Part shown: positions 14,581 through 64,000 of the stretch, piece by piece
Layout: the number at the start of each line of letters is the position of its first letter
Position numbering within the stretch: position 1 is the first letter of the stretch
Source: the human T2T-CHM13v2.0 reference genome, Homo sapiens
Direction: 5' to 3'
Assembly: GCA_009914755.4 (NCBI GenBank)
Contig: CP086569.2
Span: forward strand, 24,800,001-24,864,000
DNA: 64,000 nucleotides
Translations under genes and position numbers: made by a program
Notes under the pieces: model-generated
The model's database searches: none
The model's input: the letters and a program-made list of their open reading frames with translations, nothing else
What the model was told of the DNA's origin: nothing

Positions 14581-14871
14581 AGGGTTGGGGCTGTGGATTT
14601 AGCTACTCTCACCTGAGGCTACTGAGCAAGTTGTCATGCACCATGAGACAAAGCCCAAGCTGTCCCACCAGGCAGTAAGTATGGAGAGGTTCAGGCACAT
14701 GGCATAGCTGCTATTTCGCACAATTTTCACTACACCAGTGGTGACAAAATAGAAGAGGTTCATCCATACACAGAACCTGGTGAAGAGTTGGAGGCAGAAA
14801 GAAGTGTCTATGTGGAGACGCAACTGAAACAAAGGTGGCACAGCAACTGTTCCAATCCCGTGTCTTTCCTC

Positions 14872-16494
14872 ATGGCTTCCCAGGAGTTTGAGGTTGAAGC
14901 TATTGTTGACAAAAGACAGGATAAAAATGGGAATACACAGTATTTGGTTCGGTGGAAAGGTTATGACAAACAGGATGACACTTGGGAACCAGAGCAGCAC
15001 CTCATGAACTGTGAAAAATGTGTACATGATTTTAATAGACGACAGACTGAAAAACAGAAAAAACTGACATGGACTACAACCAGTAGAATTTTTTCAAACA
15101 ATGCCAGAAGAAGAACTTCCAGATCTACAAAAGCAAACTATTCTAAGAACTCTCCTAAAACGCCAGTGACTGATAAACACCACAGGTCCAAAAACCGCAA
15201 GTTATTTGCTGCCAGCAAGAACGTTAGGAGAAAGGCAGCTTCAATTCTCTCTGACACAAAGAATATGGAGATAATAAATTCAACTATTGAGACCCTTGCA
15301 CCTGACAGCCCCTTTGACCACAAAACTGTGAGTGGCTTTCAGAAACTTGAGAAACTGGACCCTATTGCAGCAGATCAGCAGGACACGGTGGTCTTCAAGG
15401 TGACAGAAGGGAAACTCCTCCGGGACCCTTTGTCACGTCCTGGTGCAGAACAGACTGGAATACAGAACAAGACTCAGATACACCCACTAATGTCGCAGAT
15501 GTCTGGCTCAGTTACTGCTTCTATGGCCACAGGTTCAGCTACCCGAAAGGGTATAGTGGTATTAATAGACCCATTAGCAGCCAATGGGACAACAGACATG
15601 CATACCTCAGTTCCAAGAGTGAAAGGTGGGCAAAGAAATATTACTGATGACAGCAGAGACCAGCCTTTTATCAAGAAGATGCACTTCACCATAAGGCTAA
15701 CAGAAAGTGCCAGCACATACAGAGACATTGTAGTGAAGAAAGAGGATGGATTCACCCAGATAGTGCTATCAACTAGATCGACAGAAAAAAATGCACTGAA
15801 TACAGAAGTAATTAAAGAAATAGTTAATGCTCTGAATAGCGCTGCTGCAGATGACAGCAAGCTCGTGCTGTTCAGTGCAGCTGGAAGTGTCTTTTGCTGC
15901 GGTCTTGATTTTGGGTACTTTGTGAAGCACTTAAGGAATAACAGAAACACAGCAAGCCTTGAAATGGTGGACACCATCAAGAACTTTGTGAATACTTTTA
16001 TTCAATTTAAAAAGCCTATTGTTGTATCAGTCAATGGCCCTGCGATTGGACTAGGTGCATCCATCCTGCCTCTTTGTGATCTCGTGTGGGCTAATGAAAA
16101 GGCTTGGTTCCAAACCCCTTATACGACCTTTGGACAGAGTCCAGATGGCTGTTCTTCTATTACATTCCCCAAAATGATGGGTAAAGCATCTGCCAATGAA
16201 ATGTTAATTGCTGGGCGAAAGCTGACAGCAAGGGAGGCATGCGCCAAAGGCCTGGTCTCTCAGGTATTTTTGACTGGAACTTTCACCCAAGAGGTTATGA
16301 TTCAAATTAAGGAGCTTGCCTCATACAATCCAATTGTACTGGAAGAATGTAAGGCCCTCGTTCGCTGTAATATTAAGTTGGAGTTGGAACAGGCCAATGA
16401 GAGAGAGTGTGAGGTGCTGAGGAAGATCTGGAGCTCAGCCCAAGGGATAGAATCCATGTTAAAGTATGTTGAAAATAAAATTGATGAGTTTTAA
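14872..16494 (+). CDS. CDY1: Chromodomain protein Y-linked (CDY family, CDY1/CDY2), 540 aa. It has an N-terminal chromodomain and a C-terminal enoyl-CoA hydratase/crotonase-like domain. It is an intronless retrogene.
   Basis: The in-frame ATG at 14872 starts '[44 protein letters not shown]', which is a chromodomain. The hydratase-like '[22 protein letters not shown]...[48 protein letters not shown]' follows, ending '...[11 protein letters not shown]' with stop TAA at 16492-16494. I recognise this from memory as human CDY; I cannot discriminate CDY1 from CDY2 (about 98% identical). The six-frame ORF 14788-16494 extends upstream to an earlier in-frame Met, but the MASQEF start is the known one. 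A 5'UTR-like segment at about 14580-14871 is conserved with the pseudogene copy. Confidence 0.92.
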
Positions 16495-50924: not shown

Positions 50925-53900
50925 TTCTGTAACCCTAAACTTAATCATAACGTTAACCTTAACTCAGCCTCTACCCCGATCCTAAGCAGGAATCCCTAAC
51001 ACTAACAGCAACTCTAAGCCACAGACTTGACCCCAACATCAACCCTATGCCTAGCCACTCACCAAAACCTAAACCCTAAAACAAATCCCAACTCTAAATC
51101 CTAAATCTAACAGCTAAACCTGAATTTGACCCTGACCCTGAAAATAACCCTAATCCAAGTGTAATGCAAACATTACAGAAACCTGAACTTAAGCTCTAAG
51201 CCTAAAACCTTAACCCTGAAACACTAACCGTAAGACAAAAACACTAACAGTAAGCAAAAAAACCATCTCTAACCCTCAAAAGCTAATGTTAAGCCTAACA
51301 CTAACAACAACCCCTAAATCTAACCCTAAATTCTAACTTCTAAACCTGCTTTTTGAGCATGATCATAACATTCACAATAAGTCTAATACTAACCCCTGAC
51401 CCGAATGCTAAAACTCTTATTACTACCTTAACCCTACACCTACATGACAGTGAAACCTAGCTGTTACATAAAACCTAAACCCTAATCCTAACATTAATCT
51501 TTAGGTCAACCCTAACCCTATACCTAATCCTAACCCCTGACCCTAAGCCTGACTACTAACATTAACTCTAACCCTAATGTGTTACTGCAATCTGTATCCT
51601 AATGCTCATCCTAACACTAATTCTAACCAATAATTGTAACCTCAACTGTAATCATATTAATAAACATAACCTGAACCCCTTAATCTAAATTTAAACACTC
51701 ACCATAACTATAACCCTAAAGCTTAATCTACTCTTACCCTAACCCTAAAAATAACATTAAACAATAATTCTAATCTGAATCCTAATTCTAACACGGTGTC
51801 CTATCTGTAACACCAACAGACCCACAACCACTAAACTCCAACCCTAATACTAACCCCTAACACTAATTCTATATCCTAAAGCTAACTCTAACCCTGAATT
51901 TTAACCTGTAACGCTGTAACCTAAACGCTGTATGCTAAACACTAAACGCATACCCTGTAACACTAAACATAAAAGTTACTCTATCTGATAACCTAAATGT
52001 AATTCTTCCCCTAAATACTAACCCTAACACTTAGTCCAAAATCTAACCTTGAAAACATAACCCAAAGCAAACCCCTTATTTTTAAATGTAATCCTAATGT
52101 TAACAATAAAACACTGAAAAACTACACCTAACCACAAACTCAACACATAACCCTAACAATAACACTAATCCTAACTGTAAAAGCATGAAACCTGAACTTT
52201 AACATTAAAACCAACCTAACTCTAAACCCATTAATAAAAATAAGCCTAAATCATTACTCTAAACCTAAAGCCTAAAACCTAACTATAATCTTAATCCTAA
52301 ACCATAAACTCTAACTGTAACCTGTAACTGTATCCATAAACCAAAACCCTAACCCTAAATGCTAAACTAAACCTTAGTCCCTAACTGTAACCCTAACTAA
52401 AATGCTAATACCCAACACTAATCCTAAACCCTAACACTAACTGAAAACTCTATTCCTAATCCCTACCCCAAATCCTAACCGGAACTTCAACACTAACACC
52501 AACCCCAAATGTACGCCCTAACAGTAAGCCTAACACTAAGCCTAACCTTACCACAAATCCTAACCCTTTTACCCTCAACTTAACCCTACCCCTACATGAA
52601 CACCAACCCCAAACATAAACATAAACCCTACTTTACACTAAACAGAGAATCCTAAGCCCAAATCCTAAACCTAATTATAACACTAACCCTAAACAATGCC
52701 CTAACCTTTAGCAAAACCCTAAACCCTAACTCTAACACTAACACCTCATCAAAAGCCCTACTCTAAGCCTAACACTAACCCTCAGCCTAATCTTTAGCCA
52801 AACGCTTTGACCATCATCCTAACCCTAACTCAACCACAACCAGGCACCCAATGTTAAACCACAAACTAACACTAAACCCTAATCCTAAATTTTAACAATA
52901 AACCAAACATTTTAATTATAACTCTAACACTAAGCATAACACTTGCCCTAATTTTAACCCTCATCCTGAATCCTAAACCTAACCCTCACCCAAACTCTAA
53001 TCGGAACCCTTACACTACCACATAAAGCTAACCCTAATTCTAACTATAAATCCCCAAATCCCAAAAACACTGAAGGTAGCTTTAACTGCATCCCATAACT
53101 CTAAAACTCACACTAACACTAACCCTAATACCTTTATCCTAAGAGTAAAACTAACATAATTCTAACATAATCTTAACCTTAGCACCAAACCTAAAAATAA
53201 CTCTTATCCTAAACACTGAACCTAATCATAACCTGAACCCTAAATGAGAAAACCTAACCCTTAACACTAACCCTAGTCCTAAAGCAAAATCTGTAACCCT
53301 AATTAAAACTAAACCCTTAACCTAAACCTAATCTTAGCCCCTAACTCTACAAAAACCTTAATACTAACACTAACAATAAATGCTAACCCCTAACCTTAAC
53401 ACTAAACAAAACCCTAACACTAAACCCTAACCCTAACCCTAAACTCTAAACTGAACCCTAACTGTTACCCTAATTGTGACCACTAACCTCAACCTCAACA
53501 CAAACTCAGCCTTAACAGTCATGCTAAACTTAAATCAAAAACCCCAACCATATGCCCAACACTATCACTAACATCTAACCATAAATGTTGATCACTATCA
53601 TTAACAATATCCCTAAACCCTAACCCAGAACCCTGAACTCTAACCCTACATGTAACCCTAAGCCCTATCCTAATGCTAAACACTAACCCAAATACTGAAA
53701 TACTCTAACACTTACCCTCACACTAAACCTCAATACTAACACTAACCCCGGCCAGGACCCTGATTCCTAACCTCTAACTGGAAGCCTGTCTTTTTACCCT
53801 AAACCTAAGCATAACCCAACCCCAAACCTAACCTCTAACCCTGATTCTGACCCCTAGCCCTAAACTCAACCCTAACCCATAAACCTAATCTTAACCCTAA

Positions 53901-54015
53901 CTGGAACCCTAATCCTACCACAACACTAAATCTTATTTCAAGCCCAGCCCTAACCCTCAATCTAATCCTGAACTTTTTCTGCAATTGTAAACCCTATCCC
54001 AATCCTCCGTTTCTA
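50925..54015. repeat. Highly degenerate telomere-like hexamer array of about 3.1 kb, (CTAACC)n = (CCCTAA)n on this strand.
   Basis: A 6-bp periodicity is visible for about 500 units, with typical units ctaacc, ctaaac, ctaatc, ctaagc and cctaac. Clean stretches include 'cctaaccctaaccctaaactctaaactgaaccctaactg' (about 53425) and 'cctaaaccctaacactaaaccctaaccctaaccctaaac'. The plus strand is strongly C+A rich, and this explains the ORF desert at 50813-54410. Confidence 0.85.
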
Positions 54016-54691: not shown

Positions 54692-55080
<389 letters not shown>

Positions 55081-56213
55081 ACAAAATCTATTTCTATTCA
55101 CTAGTAATAAACCCTATAAAAATGAAATTAAGATGACAACTTTATTTCTAAAAAAAAAAGAAGAAGCAGCTGGAATATTTCCCACTGCCCTGAAAGACAC
55201 AGATATCAGGCAGCCGAGGTCTGGGACAGCCTTTGAGTTGAGGCTGTGCTACTATATTGGGACCTGGCTGGAATCACTGTGGGGCTAACCAGAAACTGTT
55301 CAAGTTCCTGAGAAATCAACGTCGAATTCCTTTAAAATATAATGGATGAAGAAAAGAAAATCTCTAGCGGTTTTGAAAACCCTAATGCCATGATGTCAAA
55401 TAATGTCTTTTGAGTCATAAATTTTTAGAAAAAATCCTGCACAAACATCAGCAATAATGAAACAGTAGTTGAGTGGCCCAGGCCATTTTGCTGAGAAGAA
55501 AACCATTGAGGTCAATTTGAGAGACATCCCTTCATGAGCACTGTCAAGAGCATGCACATATTTTACCTACACATTTTACTATACCTACAGCTCCACAGGG
55601 ATTTTTAAATTCTGATTTCACATAAAACTGCACTAGAATTTCTGACGGCTGTAAACTTTCTAGATTGTATGTAAATACAATTGATTGTGTATCAATACAA
55701 TAGATTGATATAATAAAATAAATTATAATCACCTGGTAACTCTTTTCAGTGTTTAAGACTTGTAGTTGAGTTTGTATTTTTTCACAGACAGTACATTCCC
55801 TGTATGCAATGTAACTATAAAATTAATTGCTATGAAGGTTGTCTTCAGTTTTTCATAACAGAGTTGAAATTTGTTTGCAATGTCAACAAATTAAGGACAT
55901 TTTCATAACTGAGAAATAAACAAATATGGCAATTCATAGGTGGTTTTGCTTTATCCTATGGATATGACTTTTAAAATGAACAATGATGATCTAGAAAATG
56001 CTGGAAACTAGAACTAATAAACATGTTTTTCAGTTAAACAATTGGGCTAAGTGTTTTTATGTGTTTAGTTATTTGTTAATAAAATTCTTCAGTTTGTAGC
56101 TGCCCATAGCATTGCTGGAGTTATTCAAATAATTGCATTATAGGTATGCTCATAACTTAGCCAAAACATTGATTTATTTTTACTGACCCTGACACAATAA
56201 ATGTTGTATTGAT

Positions 56214-56475
56214 GCCTGTAATCTCAGCACTTTGAGAAGTCAAGGCAGGCACATCTCTTGAGCCCAGAGGTTTCAGAAGAGCCCAGGCAACATGGCAAAC
56301 CATTGTCTCCAAGAAAATAAAAAAGAAAGAAAAAGAAAAATAATTAGCCAGGTATTGCAGTGGAAGCTAAGGCAGACAGATTCAAAGGAGCCCGGGAGTG
56401 AGAAGCTGCAGGCTGCAATGAGCCATGATGGCTCATTGTAGTCCACACTTGACAAAAAGTGAGACCCTGTCTGAA
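56214..56475 (+). mobile_element. Alu SINE, slightly 5'-truncated, whose tail has expanded into the adjacent tetranucleotide STR.
   Basis: The element runs 'gcctgtaatctcagcactttgagaagtcaaggcaggcacatctcttgagcccagaggtttcag...aattagccaggtattgcagtgg...gctgcaggctgcaatgagccatgatggctcattgtagtccacacttgacaaaaagtgagaccctgtctgaaag'. Confidence 0.85.
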
Positions 56476-56480
56476 AGACA

Positions 56481-56568
<88 letters not shown>

Positions 56569-56700
56569 AGGAAAGGAAGGAAGGAAGGAAGGAAGGAAGG
56601 AAGGAAGGAAGGAAGGAAGGAAGGAAGGAAGGAAGGGAGAGAGAGAGAAAGAAAGAGAGAAAGAAAGAAAGAAAAAAGAAAGGAAGAAAAAGAGAGATAT
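56476..56700. repeat. Compound tetranucleotide microsatellite (AAAG)~22 (AAGG)~15 followed by imperfect (GA)n/(AAAG)n.
   Basis: 'acaaagaaagaaag...(aaag)n...gaaggaaaggaagg(aagg)n gagagagagagaaagaaagagagaaagaaagaaag'. This explains the K/E/R-rich ORFs at 56425-56799 and the S/F/L-rich ORF at 56344-56760(-). Confidence 0.97.
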
Positions 56701-57021
56701 GAGTTGAAATTCCTTAAGTCCTTTGATAAACTTCAGTATTGTTTTAATGTGTCTTGTCATCTCATTTTTTTATTACTACAATTCAAGGAGTTTATTTAAA
56801 GACAATTTGGGAAGGTTAACAGCTACAAATTTTTAAGAAGTAATTGAACTTTACCCAGGTGGTTGATAAGTCAACTATACAACTTAGAGTTCTTGTGCAT
56901 TATGTCTTCTGGCCAATTCAAAGTACTATATTTTCATTGATTATAAAGCAAATTATCCTTTTCAACTTTCAAAACAGAAACCAAAAACAAACAAACAAAC
57001 AACAACAACAACAACAAAACA

Positions 57022-57190
57022 GGCTGAATGTTGTGGCTTACACCTGTAATTCCAGTACTTTGGGAGGCCAAGCAGGGAGGATTGCTCAAGCCCAAGTGTT
57101 TGAAGCTGCAGTGAGCTATGATTGCACAAGTACGTTCCCACATGGGCCAAAGAATAAGGCCCTGTCTCAAAGAGCAACAACAAAAAGCCA
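57022..57190 (+). mobile_element. Alu-like partial element (left-monomer start joined to right-arm end, an internally deleted Alu or FLAM-like element), preceded by (CAAA)n(CAA)n.
   Basis: The element runs 'ggctgaatgttgtggcttacacctgtaattccagtactttgggaggccaagcagggaggattgctcaagcccaagtgtttgaagctgcagtgagctatgattgcacaagtacg...ggccctgtctcaaagagcaacaacaaaaag'. Confidence 0.6.
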
Positions 57191-57239
57191 ACGATCATAA
57201 AGTTTTCAAGACGAACTTTTATCAAGGTGCAAGAATTAG

Positions 57240-58160
57240 ACATGAAAAATTACAAAATACTGCTGAAATAAATTCCAGAAACCCTTCATAAACGTAAAGA
57301 TACTCAGTGCTTTTGGATTAGAAGATGATTCTTATGTGACAATACTGCACAAAGCAAACTACAAATTCATTGTGATTTCTATGAAAATACCAAAGTCCTT
57401 TTGGCAGAAATGGGCAAGCCAATTCTAACATTCATATACATTTCAGGGGATGCTGAATAGCCAAAATATTCTTGAAAACAAAAACAAATATTGCTGCTAA
57501 GCAGCAGTCATCAAAACAGCATAATACTGGTGTAAGGACACACACAGAGGTCAATGGAACTGAAGGTTAATTCCAACTGTACCTCTATAGTCAATTGATT
57601 TTTGACAGGTAACCAAGATCAGTAAATTCAACAAATGCTGTTATGCAACTGAATACCGCATTCAGACAAAGAAATTGTACTTTTCTCACAACAGAACATA
57701 AAATTAACAGAAAATGTTTCAAAGCCTACATATTAGAGGTAAAAAAAGAAACTTTAGAAGAATATATGGGGATAGATCTTCATAATGTTGGATTTAGCAG
57801 TGGTTTCTTAGATCTGATACCAAAAGCACAGTCAACTAAAGAAAGAATTTTCTCAAAATTAAACATTTTTGTGCATCAAAAGACACTGTCAAGAAAGTGA
57901 AAAGACATGGTACAGAAAGGAAGGCTTGCATTTTATGTATGTAACAACAGTCTGCTATCGACAATGTATGAAGACTTTGCATACCTCAGTAACAAAATAA
58001 AAGACAAACAATCCAGGTACAAAACAGAGAAGTAGTTGAATACACACTTCACCAAAAAGACATGCATATGGAATACAAGCACATAAAAAGATGACCAGTA
58101 AAATATATAAGTTTTACTCCATCAGGTGTTTCCTAAATAAGCTTTTCTCATAGTCATGTG
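57240..58160 (+). mobile_element. Old L1 (L1M/L1P-like) ORF2 C-terminal fragment.
   Basis: 'gatcttcataatgttggatttagcagtggtttcttagatctgataccaaaagcacagtcaactaaagaaagaatt' ~ L1 'gacattggtcttggcaatgatttcttggatatgacaccaaaagcacaagcaacaaaagcaaaaata'. ORF 57643-57900 'MQLNTAFRQRNCTFLTTEHKINRKCFKAYILEVKKETLEEYMGIDLHNVGFSSGFLDLIPKAQSTKERIFSKLNIFVHQK' is L1 ORF2-like. Confidence 0.6.
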
Positions 58161-59589
58161 ATTCCGTGTGGGAAAATTAGTCCTATCCAGCTCGACTTAA
58201 GGAGCAGCTAAGTTAACAATACTGCTGGGGAGCAAGTTTGCTTGGATGAGAAAATAAATACCTGGCAAGAAATAATATTCTGAAATGAAAACTTTCTTGC
58301 TGGACTAAAGTTTCCAGTAGAGCTGATAGTTTGTCCCTCAGCCTCCATGGGCCCAAAATTTATCATCCAGCAGGAAGTAATAAGGGAAGTCATTAAGTTA
58401 ATGAGGTACATGGGTACACAAATGCCCCAAGTCTCATATCAAAGCTGTGACATAATTACATACCCTCACAGCATTTCAATATTCAAATATTAACAATTCA
58501 TCTGCTTAAATATCTAAGCTTACTTTATTTACTTTACACTATACAGTTAAGGAGGTTTACAAATATTTATATGAATTGTCATGTCGTGTTCTAGGGCTTT
58601 TTTGTCACTTAAATGTATTGATGGACTACGTTACATGTAAGTACTTAAACCTAACATAACTTGGAAATAATAACACACGGTTACGGAAGATAGCAAGGTA
58701 ACAGTCTGCCCGATAAATTCTTATGTAATTTCAATAATTAATAGTGTCATTAGTCTTCAGCACTGAGATGTTTTATTTACTAATTTCCCCAAACATGAAC
58801 TTTCATTGCATTAACTATTATTTCCTTGATTTATAAATTGAGAGTGATCTCATCAATTATCTAACAAATAATGAATTTCTTTTTATCTTTAGAAACAGCA
58901 CATCATTATCTTTTCTACAGTTAAATAGCACAAGCTCTGACTTTATTAGCTGGACAAAGCCTTGGGAAATTAGATAAGTGTGGGCACTAGGTGAATAGAT
59001 TGAGAGATAGCACATAAAATTCCTGAGACACTCCAGACACTGTGTTACCACAATTAAAATCAGATGAGACTGCAGGTAGTTGAGCAGACTGAGTGGGCAC
59101 AGGAAACAGGCAGGAGAACTTGGGGTCTGCAGCTATGGTGAGTTCTATGGTTCTTGTTCTAAGGTCAGTGGGAAACCATTGGCAAAATTAAATCAGGAGA
59201 GTGACAGGATGAAACTTGTGTTTGTAAGTGAATATTTTGCCATTACCCTTACCAGTACCAACCCTGTATTTCCCGATGTTGTAGTTATGTGGTGGTACCC
59301 TTGGAGAATGTCTCCACTTTTTGTAAAACCCACTGGGATATTTTGCATAAAGCTTCAAATCTGGCACAGCAGAAACCACTGGAGATTCTGGGAGAGAGGA
59401 TTACTCTATACTAATAGCTATTGGAAGTTTCCTAGAAGTATGAAATTATTGAGAAATAAACTACTTTTTAATAAAAACAACCATGTCAATACCTTGTCAC
59501 TAAAGCAGAGACAACAACATCAAACATCATTATAGAGGCCAAATCCAACCCAAATCCAGCTCAGTGGAAGCTCTGAAAAAAAGTGCCCT

Positions 59590-60180
59590 GGTAAGAGTAG
59601 GAATGTTATGACAGCATTGCAGGTGTTACATCTTTATGTTGAGAGTTACATCAGTAATTATGGGTGTTACATCATATTATGGTTGTTTCATTTGTATTAC
59701 AAATGTTGTGTTAGTATTATGGGTGTTAGTATTACCGGTGTTACATCAGTATTACAGTTGTTACATCAGTATTACGGTTGCTATATTTGTATTGCAGGAT
59801 GATATAATGGTATTATGAGTGGTATAATGGTATTATGAGTGTTACAGTTGTATTACAGGTGTCAGGACAGCATTATTACACAAGTGTTATGGATGTTTCA
59901 TTTGTATTGTGGGTTGTATATTGGTATTATGAGCTTGGCACTTGTATTATGGGTCTTAGATAAGTATTCCGGTTGTTATATTTGTGTTTCAGATGGTATA
60001 CTGGTATTATGAGTGTTTTATTGCTGTTAATGAGTGTTACAGTGGTAATACGGGTGTTAGATGAGTATTTCAGGTGTTACATTAGTATTACGAATGACAC
60101 ATCTGTATTATGGTTGATATATTTGTTTACAGATGTTATATTTCTATTACAGATGTTATATGATGAATGATACATTTGTG
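59590..60180. repeat. Minisatellite (VNTR-like) of about 30 degenerate copies of a unit of about 20 bp, consensus roughly GGTGTTACATCAGTATTACR.
   Basis: The read runs 'gtgttacatctttatgttgagagttacatcagtaattatgggtgttacatcatattatggttgtttcatttgtattacaaatgttgtgttagtattatgggtgttagtattaccggtgttacatcagtattacagttgttacatcagtattacggttgc...'. The periodic 'gtattatgagtg', 'gtattacaggtg' and 'gtattacgaatg' are visible. ORFs at 59608-60170 are artefacts (YYGCY/ITGVT periodic peptides). Confidence 0.85.
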
Positions 60181-60224
60181 GCACGAGGCCACGGTGTGGA
60201 CCTGGCATTGTGGCCACCACAAAT

Positions 60225-60600
60225 TGTGTGTGGGGAAGGACGTTGGGGTGCACTTAAAGCCATGGGATATTTTTATGTTTAATTTTCCACAAGAAGCCCT
60301 TCTCCTGGGTCCCTGATCCTCAGCAGTCAGAGGGAAATTTTTATTTACCACTCCCTCCAGCTGTCCCACAGCAAGGCGTTGTTGCTCTGGTCTGTGCTGA
60401 GAAGAACGCTGCTCTCCCCCTCAAGCAGCATGCGCTGAAAACACCTGCACTCCCAGGGTCAGAAAAGGCAGACTCTTGCGTCCCCTGCTAGCAGCCGGAA
60501 GAACTGCAGGACACTCATGGTCAAGGTGAAGCAGCCGCGTGCGTGCGACGCCCCACCTGGCTGGCCTGCGGCACCAAATAAAAGCAGAGGTCAGACTGTT
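60225..60600 (+). mobile_element. Possible solo LTR remnant (tentative).
   Basis: It begins 'tgtgtgtggggaaggacgttggggtgcac', which resembles ERV LTR 5' ends (TGTGGGGAA...). It contains 'caaataaaagcagaggtc' (AATAAA) near its end and is GC-rich relative to its surroundings. It directly abuts the poly-T end of the L1 at 60640. The evidence is weak. Confidence 0.2.
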
Positions 60601-60639
60601 CAAAGCCGTCATTTTAGAAATTCAAATGGAAATGTTGCC

Positions 60640-64000
<3,361 letters not shown>

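What the first reader, a model, noticed from the sequence alone, without database searches (positions are those of the whole stretch)
56214..56700. Alu-tail-derived compound (AAAG)~22(AAGG)~15 tetranucleotide STR, a candidate multi-copy Y-STR
The poly-A tail of the Alu at 56214-56475 has evolved into two long uninterrupted tetranucleotide arrays. Such long pure arrays are highly mutable. On the opposite strand this reads (CCTT)15(CTTT)22. From memory, the multi-copy AZFc marker DYS464 is a (CCTT)n repeat with modal alleles around 15, and several rapidly mutating Y-STRs (DYF387S1, DYS385, DYS627) are AAAG/GAAG/AAGG compounds. If this is a Y-ampliconic region, this locus is a plausible named forensic or genealogical Y-STR.
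Basis: inference. Interest (0 to 1): 0.5.

Follow-up and report, generated by a model that had tools for sequence, protein, structure and literature searches.

The report
Known Y-chromosome marker DYS724 (CDY a/b)
The long AAAG/AAGG repeat is real and is almost certainly DYS724, a known fast-mutating two-copy human Y-chromosome marker (called "CDY a/b" by genealogists) lying 40 kb from the CDY1 gene, so it is correctly spotted but not new.

Summary
An old, 5'-truncated Alu (56210-56479) ends in (AAAG)22 AAGGA (AAGG)16 (56480-56636). A degenerate purine tail follows to 56697, giving a 218-nt purine-only tract, the only one of 40 nt or more in the window.

The window is human Y chromosome. An intronless ORF at 14872-16494 is residue-for-residue human CDY1 isoform a, the gene of the AZFc "yellow" amplicons. 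The repeat starts 39,986 bp downstream of it.

On the minus strand the array reads (CCTT)16 TCCTT (CTTT)22. This is exactly the published structure of DYS724, N18(CCTT)m TCCTT(CTTT)n with allele = m+n, including the odd 5-base TCCTT junction. The allele here would be 38. Published Han genotypes run 31-40, mostly two alleles per man. Published mutation rates are about 2.5-4.8 x 10^-2 per generation.

DYS724 primers were not in the held literature, so in-silico PCR could not be run.

One side result: the DYF404S1 primers find their best window-wide matches (3 and 5 mismatches) facing the repeat from both flanks. Human contigs also show a roughly 94% identical paralogue carrying a plain (AGAA)n array. 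DYF404S1 is therefore probably a diverged paralogue.

Verdict: already known, low interest.

The parts
56210..56479 (+). Old, 5'-truncated, internally deleted Alu (AluJ-like). Its 3' end abuts the repeat.
   Evidence: Alignment to an Alu consensus scores 216 against 60.7 +/- 6.6 for shuffles. The consensus was typed from my own knowledge.
56480..56567 (+). (AAAG)22, which is the (CTTT)n block of DYS724 on the minus strand (n = 22).
   Evidence: Regex count; TRF.
56568..56572 (+). AAGGA junction, which is the TCCTT interruption in the published DYS724 formula.
   Evidence: The exact minus-strand match of (CCTT)3 TCCTT (CTTT)3 at 56556-56584 has 0 expected by chance. Formula from PMC9804972 Table 1.
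56573..56636 (+). (AAGG)16, which is the (CCTT)m block of DYS724 on the minus strand (m = 16).
   Evidence: Regex count.
56637..56697 (+). Degenerate purine tail, (AG)n/(AAAG)n remnants that are not counted in the allele. Part of it probably corresponds to the 'N18' of the published formula.
   Evidence: Sequence. The assignment to N18 is inference.
56739..56758 (-). Site resembling the published DYF404S1 forward primer (17/20 identical), pointing at the repeat.
   Evidence: It is the only match with up to 3 mismatches in the window, where 0.02 are expected by chance.
56347..56366 (+). Best window-wide match of the published DYF404S1 reverse primer (15/20 identical), inside the Alu and pointing at the repeat.
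   Evidence: This is weak on its own; its weight comes from pairing with the forward site.
14872..16494 (+). Context: an intact intronless CDY1 coding sequence (540 aa plus stop), 39,986 bp upstream of the repeat on the same strand.
   Evidence: Exact-sequence look-up returns human CDY1 isoform a / CDY1_HUMAN. It is identical to the CDY1 structure 2fbm over the catalytic domain and differs from CDY2 (2fw2) at 4 residues. Distance.

Best explanation
This is one copy of DYS724, the two-copy, rapidly mutating human Y-STR that genetic genealogists call 'CDY a/b'. It lies in the CDY1-bearing yellow amplicon of AZFc.

Origin (inferred): the A-rich tail of an old Alu acquired G substitutions and expanded into an (AAAG)n microsatellite. 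Part of that was converted to (AAGG)n and expanded separately.

How it behaves: it has no known cellular function. It is a neutral, hypermutable length polymorphism. Two long uninterrupted blocks of 22 and 16 units slip during replication, mostly by single-unit gains and losses. The published rate is about 2.5-4.8 per 100 father-son transmissions. The amplicon is present in two copies of over 99.9% identity, so a man shows an unordered pair of alleles. Gene conversion between the copies and AZFc duplications or deletions can equalise alleles or change the copy number.

Shown here: the sequence anatomy, the exact structural match, the linkage to CDY1, and an allele within the published range.

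Taken from the literature: copy number and mutation rate.

Inferred: the Alu-tail origin, the slippage mechanism and the role of gene conversion.
For: 1. The minus strand reads (CCTT)16 TCCTT (CTTT)22. The published DYS724 structure is N18(CCTT)m TCCTT(CTTT)n, allele = m+n, with nomenclature from FamilyTreeDNA (PMC9804972 Table 1). Motifs, order, strand relation and the unusual 5-nt junction all agree.
2. The allele m+n = 38 lies inside the 31-40 range of DYS724 genotypes in Han father-son pairs, mostly two alleles per man (PMC9489694 Table S1).
3. The same window holds an ORF exactly equal to human CDY1 isoform a. It is CDY1 and not CDY2. CDY1 sits in the yellow AZFc amplicons, one unit per amplicon copy, with copies over 99.9% identical (PMC2918367). 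[quoted passage not shown] The alias 'CDY' for DYS724 is from my own knowledge.
4. Mutation rates fit long pure arrays: 24.5 x 10^-3, 35.8 x 10^-3, 34.8-40.4 x 10^-3, 38.4 x 10^-3 from 167 mutations in 4354 meioses against a 48.0 x 10^-3 reference. One-step father-son changes are visible.
Against: No DYS724 primer pair or reference coordinate could be obtained, so the identification rests on repeat structure, allele range and linkage to CDY1, not on in-silico PCR. The 'N18' element of the published formula cannot be mapped unambiguously onto the degenerate tail. Diverged paralogues of the flank exist in the human genome, so in principle a paralogue could carry a similar array. The one paralogous array seen (L005) is a plain (AGAA)n. 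Copy number cannot be checked from one 64-kb window.
Confidence: 0.93

Rival explanations
1. It is one of the markers the first reader named: DYS464 (a (CCTT)n marker), DYF387S1, DYS385, DYS518 or DYS627.
For: These markers share CCTT/AAGG or AAAG motifs. DYS464 alleles are near 15-16 (control DNA 9948 types 15,16), similar to the 16 AAGG units here.
Against: Published primers for all five have at least 5 mismatches everywhere in the window. The one exception is the DYS464 reverse primer, which is itself AAGG-repeat sequence and lands inside the array with 3 mismatches. Their published structures differ from this locus. DYS464 is (CCTT)9-20 N46 (CCTT)3 N8 (CCTT)4 with no adjoining CTTT block. 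DYS385 has AAGG before GAAA, the opposite order. DYF387S1, DYS518 and DYS627 contain GTAG, GAAG, GGAG or AGAG blocks that are absent here.
Confidence: 0.01
2. It is a paralogous locus, either DYF404S1 itself or an unnamed DYS724-like copy elsewhere, and not DYS724 proper.
For: The DYF404S1 primers have their best window-wide hits on both flanks, facing the array. The non-repeat length of that would-be amplicon (about 255 bp) is close to that of DYF404S1 (about 240-250 bp, from 290-318 bp with 10-20 repeats). Diverged human paralogues of the flank exist.
Against: Three plus five mismatches are too many for the true priming sites. DYF404S1 is (TTTC)10-20 N42 (TTTC)3 with alleles 12-17, not a 38-unit CCTT/CTTT compound. 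The window carries the exact CDY1 ORF, and its array matches the DYS724 formula down to the junction.
Confidence: 0.04
3. It is an ordinary unnamed Alu-tail microsatellite whose match to the DYS724 formula is coincidental.
For: AAAG/AAGG compound arrays at Alu tails are common in the human genome, and the published formula is short.
Against: This would require a chance match of motif order, the TCCTT junction and the summed allele size, together with location next to CDY1, the gene the marker's genealogical name refers to.
Confidence: 0.02

Closest known systems
DYS724 (alias CDY a/b), a two-copy rapidly mutating Y-STR in the RMplex and 26 RM Yplex panels
   Same: The repeat structure (CCTT)m TCCTT (CTTT)n is identical, including the junction. 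Allele 38 is within the observed range. The locus is on the Y chromosome next to CDY1 in duplicated AZFc sequence.
   Different: Nothing found to differ.
DYF404S1, a two-copy rapidly mutating Y-STR at Yq11.23 with structure (TTTC)10-20 N42 (TTTC)3
   Same: It has the same purine/pyrimidine tetranucleotide class. Its primers resemble both flanks of this locus (17/20 and 15/20 identical) in the correct facing orientation and at a similar non-repeat spacing, so it is probably a diverged paralogue.
   Different: The priming sites are not identical. Its array is a simple short TTTC run with alleles 12-17 and no CCTT block.
DYS464, a four-copy (CCTT)n Y-STR
   Same: It has the CCTT motif and a similar unit count of about 15-16, and it is multi-copy (DYS464 a-d).
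   Different: Its flanks differ (forward primer at least 6 mismatches anywhere in the window). It has no adjoining (CTTT)n block, and its structure is (CCTT)n N46 (CCTT)3 N8 (CCTT)4.
Alu poly-A-tail-derived microsatellites in general
   Same: The array begins directly after the Alu 3' end ...GAGACCCTGTCT, and the Alu's internal A-rich linker (56314-56340) has also drifted towards AAAG-like units.
   Different: It is unusually long and pure: two blocks totalling 38 units inside a 218-nt purine tract. No target-site duplication is recognisable, because the Alu is old and truncated.

Membership tests
DYS724 (CDY a/b) | Repeat structure (CCTT)m TCCTT (CTTT)n | tested here: met
   The minus strand reads (CCTT)16 TCCTT (CTTT)22. 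The junction matches exactly, with 0 expected by chance. Formula from PMC9804972 Table 1.
DYS724 (CDY a/b) | Allele (m+n) within the population range | tested here: met
   16 + 22 = 38. Han genotypes span 31-40.
DYS724 (CDY a/b) | Lies on the human Y chromosome in CDY1-linked duplicated sequence | tested here: met
   An exact human CDY1 isoform a ORF lies 39,986 bp upstream. CDY1 is in the yellow amplicons of AZFc. The link between the marker name 'CDY' and DYS724 is from my own knowledge.
DYS724 (CDY a/b) | Two copies per reference Y chromosome | not testable with these tools
   No human genome collection is available. The literature reports a two-copy locus, and yellow amplicon copies are over 99.9% identical.
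DYS724 (CDY a/b) | Published PCR primers bind both flanks | not testable with these tools
   Ralf et al. 2020 and 2021 are not held, and no supplement with DYS724 primers is held. Kayser et al. 2004 was not looked up because I had no PMC id for it.
DYS724 (CDY a/b) | Mutation rate of at least 10^-2 per generation | not testable with these tools
   This is a property of pedigrees, not of one sequence. Published rates are 24.5-48 x 10^-3.
DYS464 | Published primers and the structure (CCTT)9-20 N46 (CCTT)3 N8 (CCTT)4 | tested here: not met
   The forward primer has at least 6 mismatches anywhere in the window. The reverse primer matches only inside the AAGG array. The structure differs.
DYF387S1 / DYS385 / DYS518 / DYS627 | Published primers bind the flanks and the published repeat structure is present | tested here: not met
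   All primers have at least 5 mismatches anywhere in the window. The structures differ.
DYF404S1 | Published primers bind the flanks and the structure is (TTTC)10-20 N42 (TTTC)3 | tested here: not met
   The primers sit at the flanks but with 3 and 5 mismatches, and the structure differs. This points to a paralogue, not the same locus.
Alu-tail-derived microsatellite | The array starts at the 3' end of an Alu in the sense orientation | tested here: met
   The Alu alignment ends at ...GAGACCCTGTCT, 7 nt before the array. Rfam did not call this old copy; it detected only the younger Alu at 57023.

The most novel reading that the evidence does not exclude
DYS724, DYF404S1 and at least one further human locus (seen as the 5-7% diverged part of contig L005, which carries a plain (AGAA)n array) may descend from a single ancestral Alu-tail microsatellite copied by segmental duplication. 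The copies would then have evolved very different array architectures: a 38-unit CCTT/CTTT compound against a 12-17-unit simple TTTC run. That would be a natural experiment on how array composition sets the Y-STR mutation rate. It may already be implicit in reference-genome annotation.
Probability: 0.5. Interest if true: 0.2.

Novelty: already known. Interest (0 to 1): 0.1.

Why it matters
It matters little scientifically, because the locus is an established forensic and genealogical marker. Practically, the result anchors the window to the CDY1 (yellow) amplicon of human AZFc. It also shows that the first-stage reader can recognise a real named Y-STR from raw sequence, even though it guessed the wrong names. 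The apparent paralogy with DYF404S1 is a small point of interest for people designing locus-specific primers or interpreting multi-copy rapidly mutating Y-STR genotypes.

Tried and rejected
1. DYS724 primers were not obtainable. Ralf et al. 2020 (by DOI and PubMed id) and Ralf et al. 2021 are not held, and Ballantyne et al. 2010 is not held. The supplements of PMC12218846 and PMC9804972 are not held as text. The CSYseq supplements have no DYS724 entry. I decided against tiling the flanks as search terms across the library. Only 6 held papers mention DYS724 and none gives primers in its main text.

2. A search for 'CDYa/CDYb' returned almost only unrelated hits. One genealogy paper confirms CDY as a fast multi-copy marker but does not give the DYS724 alias.

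3. Exact scans of JGI metagenome contigs for the right flank and for the DYF404S1 forward primer found nothing.

4. Exact look-ups of the ORFs at 55061-55285 and 56425-56796, the latter spanning the array, were not on record. No independent assembly spanning the whole array was obtained. Short-read contigs stop at the array or at the neighbouring Alu.

5. I found no target-site duplication of 7 nt or more for the Alu, and no second copy of either flank inside the window.

6. Rfam did not detect the old Alu. It detected only the younger one at 57023, plus Alu-derived miRNA-family noise.

7. The (TTC)~63 array at 38.1 kb was compared with the published formulas of DYF1000, DYS688, DYS612 and DYF393S1, and with the DYS612 and DYF393S1 primers. 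None matched.

Full report
**Observation.**
Reading 55900-57100 and counting motifs gives pure (AAAG)22 at 56480-56567, a five-base AAGGA junction at 56568-56572 and pure (AAGG)16 at 56573-56636. A degenerate purine tail runs on to 56697. Tandem Repeats Finder reports one period-4 array at 56480-56689 with 52.8 copies and score 259.

These are the only pure tetranucleotide arrays of at least 8 copies in the window, apart from a dinucleotide (AC)n run that the same regex picks up. The 218-nt purine-only run is the only one of 40 nt or more.

The sequence just upstream (56210-56479) aligns to positions 17-281 of an AluJ-type consensus typed from my own knowledge. The score is 216 against 60.7 +/- 6.6 for shuffles. 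It is an old, 5'-truncated, internally deleted Alu whose 3' end ...GAGACCCTGTCT sits directly before the array. The observation and its coordinates are confirmed.

**Where the window comes from.**
The longest ORF in the window (14788-16494, with the CDY start at 14872) is a chromodomain plus enoyl-CoA-hydratase-like protein. Against solved structures it is identical to human CDY1 (2fbm) across the catalytic domain and differs from CDY2 (2fw2) at four residues. An exact-sequence look-up finds the 540-aa product as [quoted passage not shown] / CDY1_HUMAN.

[quoted passage not shown] The repeat begins 39,986 bp downstream of the CDY1 stop codon on the same strand.

**What the repeat is.**
On the minus strand the array reads (CCTT)16 TCCTT (CTTT)22. 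Table 1 of the 26 RM Yplex paper gives DYS724 as "N18(CCTT)m TCCTT (CTTT)n", allele = m+n, with nomenclature adopted from FamilyTreeDNA (PMC9804972).

Motifs, their order and the unusual 5-base TCCTT junction all agree. The junction string (CCTT)3 TCCTT (CTTT)3 occurs once in the window, with none expected by chance. The allele would be 38. DYS724 genotypes in Han father-son pairs span 31-40, mostly two alleles per man, and one-step father-son changes are visible (PMC9489694 Table S1).

DYS724 is described as a two-copy locus among the 12 rapidly mutating Y-STRs added by Ralf et al. 2020 (PMC12218846). From my own knowledge, DYS724 is the marker sold by genealogy companies as "CDY a/b", named for its proximity to the CDY genes. 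That fits the linkage found here.

Supplementary Table S1 of PMC9222627 lists primers and repeat structures for 19 Y-STRs, including DYS464, DYF387S1, DYS385, DYS518 and DYS627. I searched every primer against both strands of the whole window.

All primers of the five named markers have at least 5 mismatches everywhere. The one exception is the DYS464 reverse primer, which is itself AAGG-repeat sequence and lands trivially inside the array. Their published structures also differ:
- DYS464 has no adjoining CTTT block.
- DYS385 has the AAGG and GAAA blocks in the opposite order.
- DYF387S1, DYS518 and DYS627 contain GTAG, GAAG, GGAG or AGAG blocks that are absent here.

**An unplanned result.**
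The DYF404S1 forward primer has exactly one match with up to 3 mismatches in the window. It is at 56739-56758 on the minus strand, 42 bp from the end of the purine tract and pointing at it, where 0.02 matches are expected by chance. The reverse primer's best window-wide match (5 mismatches) is at 56347-56366 on the plus strand, on the other side and also pointing at the array. The non-repeat length between the two sites is about 255 bp, close to what DYF404S1 amplicon sizes imply.

DYF404S1 is a different marker, (TTTC)10-20 N42 (TTTC)3 with alleles 12-17. I read this as paralogy, not identity.

Independent support comes from host DNA in public assemblies. An 85-aa ORF 1 kb downstream of the repeat is found on 24 short contigs. 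Most of the ten contigs shown come from PRJEB21933; papers citing that accession include a paediatric Crohn's disease study that profiled biopsies (PMC5769311), though I did not open it to confirm the link. The contigs are labelled human gut metagenome, so I treat the host DNA as human.

Two Logan contigs, one from this look-up and one from the 151-aa ORF look-up, are 99.9-100% identical to the window. The rest are 94-99% identical and differ from one another. Mismatches are concentrated in blocks. This suggests either mosaics of this locus with one or more paralogues about 5-7% diverged, or several paralogues.

Contig L005 reaches the repeat position through a 5-7% diverged flank and there carries a plain (AGAA)n array of at least 10 units. 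No contig spans the whole array. Contigs stop at the array or at the adjacent Alu.

**Mechanism.**
Nothing suggests a cellular function. The best-supported account is a neutral, hypermutable microsatellite:
- An Alu A-tail acquired G substitutions and expanded as (AAAG)n. Part of it became (AAGG)n and expanded separately (inferred from the anatomy).
- Two long uninterrupted blocks undergo replication slippage (established knowledge of microsatellites).
- Published rates for DYS724 are 24.5 x 10^-3, 35.8 x 10^-3, 34.8-40.4 x 10^-3, and 38.4 x 10^-3 from 167 mutations in 4354 meioses against a 48.0 x 10^-3 father-son reference.
- Because the amplicon is duplicated, men show unordered allele pairs. 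Single-allele calls and three-copy genotypes occur. These fit gene conversion between amplicon copies and AZFc copy-number rearrangements (inference; the AZFc background is).

**Limits.**
I could not obtain DYS724 primers or reference coordinates and have no human genome to map against. The identification therefore rests on exact structure, allele range and CDY1 linkage. The "N18" of the published formula cannot be placed unambiguously in the degenerate tail. I put the identification at about 0.93.

**Verdict.**
This is a real feature. Interest is low. The only mildly new point is the probable paralogy between DYS724 and DYF404S1.

Noticed in passing
window 14872-16494 (+): An intact intronless ORF exactly equal to human CDY1 isoform a (540 aa). 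This places the window in the yellow amplicon of AZFc on the human Y chromosome.
   Followed up: yes
window 56739-56758 (-) and 56347-56366 (+): The published DYF404S1 primers have their best window-wide matches (3 and 5 mismatches) on the two flanks of the repeat, facing it. DYF404S1 is probably a diverged paralogue of this locus.
   Followed up: partly
L002-L010 against window 56609-60807: Host-DNA contigs, labelled human gut metagenome, are only 94-99% identical to the window. Mismatches fall in blocks, and the contigs differ from one another. The region downstream of the repeat therefore has one or more diverged paralogues in the human genome. L005 carries a plain (AGAA)n array at the homologous position.
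   Followed up: partly
window 38117-38304: A very long trinucleotide array, (TTC)~63 with a few CTC and TGC interruptions, inside a 163-nt pyrimidine-only run. It is likely polymorphic and possibly another named Y-STR. It did not match the published formulas of DYF1000, DYS688, DYS612 or DYF393S1, or the DYS612 and DYF393S1 primers.
   Followed up: partly
window 52260-53917: About 1.6 kb of degenerate telomere-like (CCCTAA)n-derived repeats (TRF periods 6, 19, 26, 31, 37 and 44), an interstitial telomere-like tract.
   Followed up: no
window 59612-59862: A tandem array of a roughly 20-bp unit (CAGTATTACAGGTGTTACAT), about 8-12 diverged copies, of unknown family.
   Followed up: no
window 41401-41697: A complex TA/TG/CA-rich tandem repeat region (periods 16-45). 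It produces a spurious 173-aa ORF at 41196-41717.
   Followed up: no
window 158-931 (-): A 257-aa ORF whose translation looks like a LINE-1 ORF2 fragment. This is judged from my own knowledge of L1 sequences and was not tested.
   Followed up: no
window 56971-57330: A second, younger Alu in the plus orientation starts at about 57023 (weak Metazoa_SRP hit at 57023-57169). It is preceded by an (AAAC)n/(AAC)n A-rich microsatellite at 56971-57021. Short-read contigs tend to break here.
   Followed up: partly
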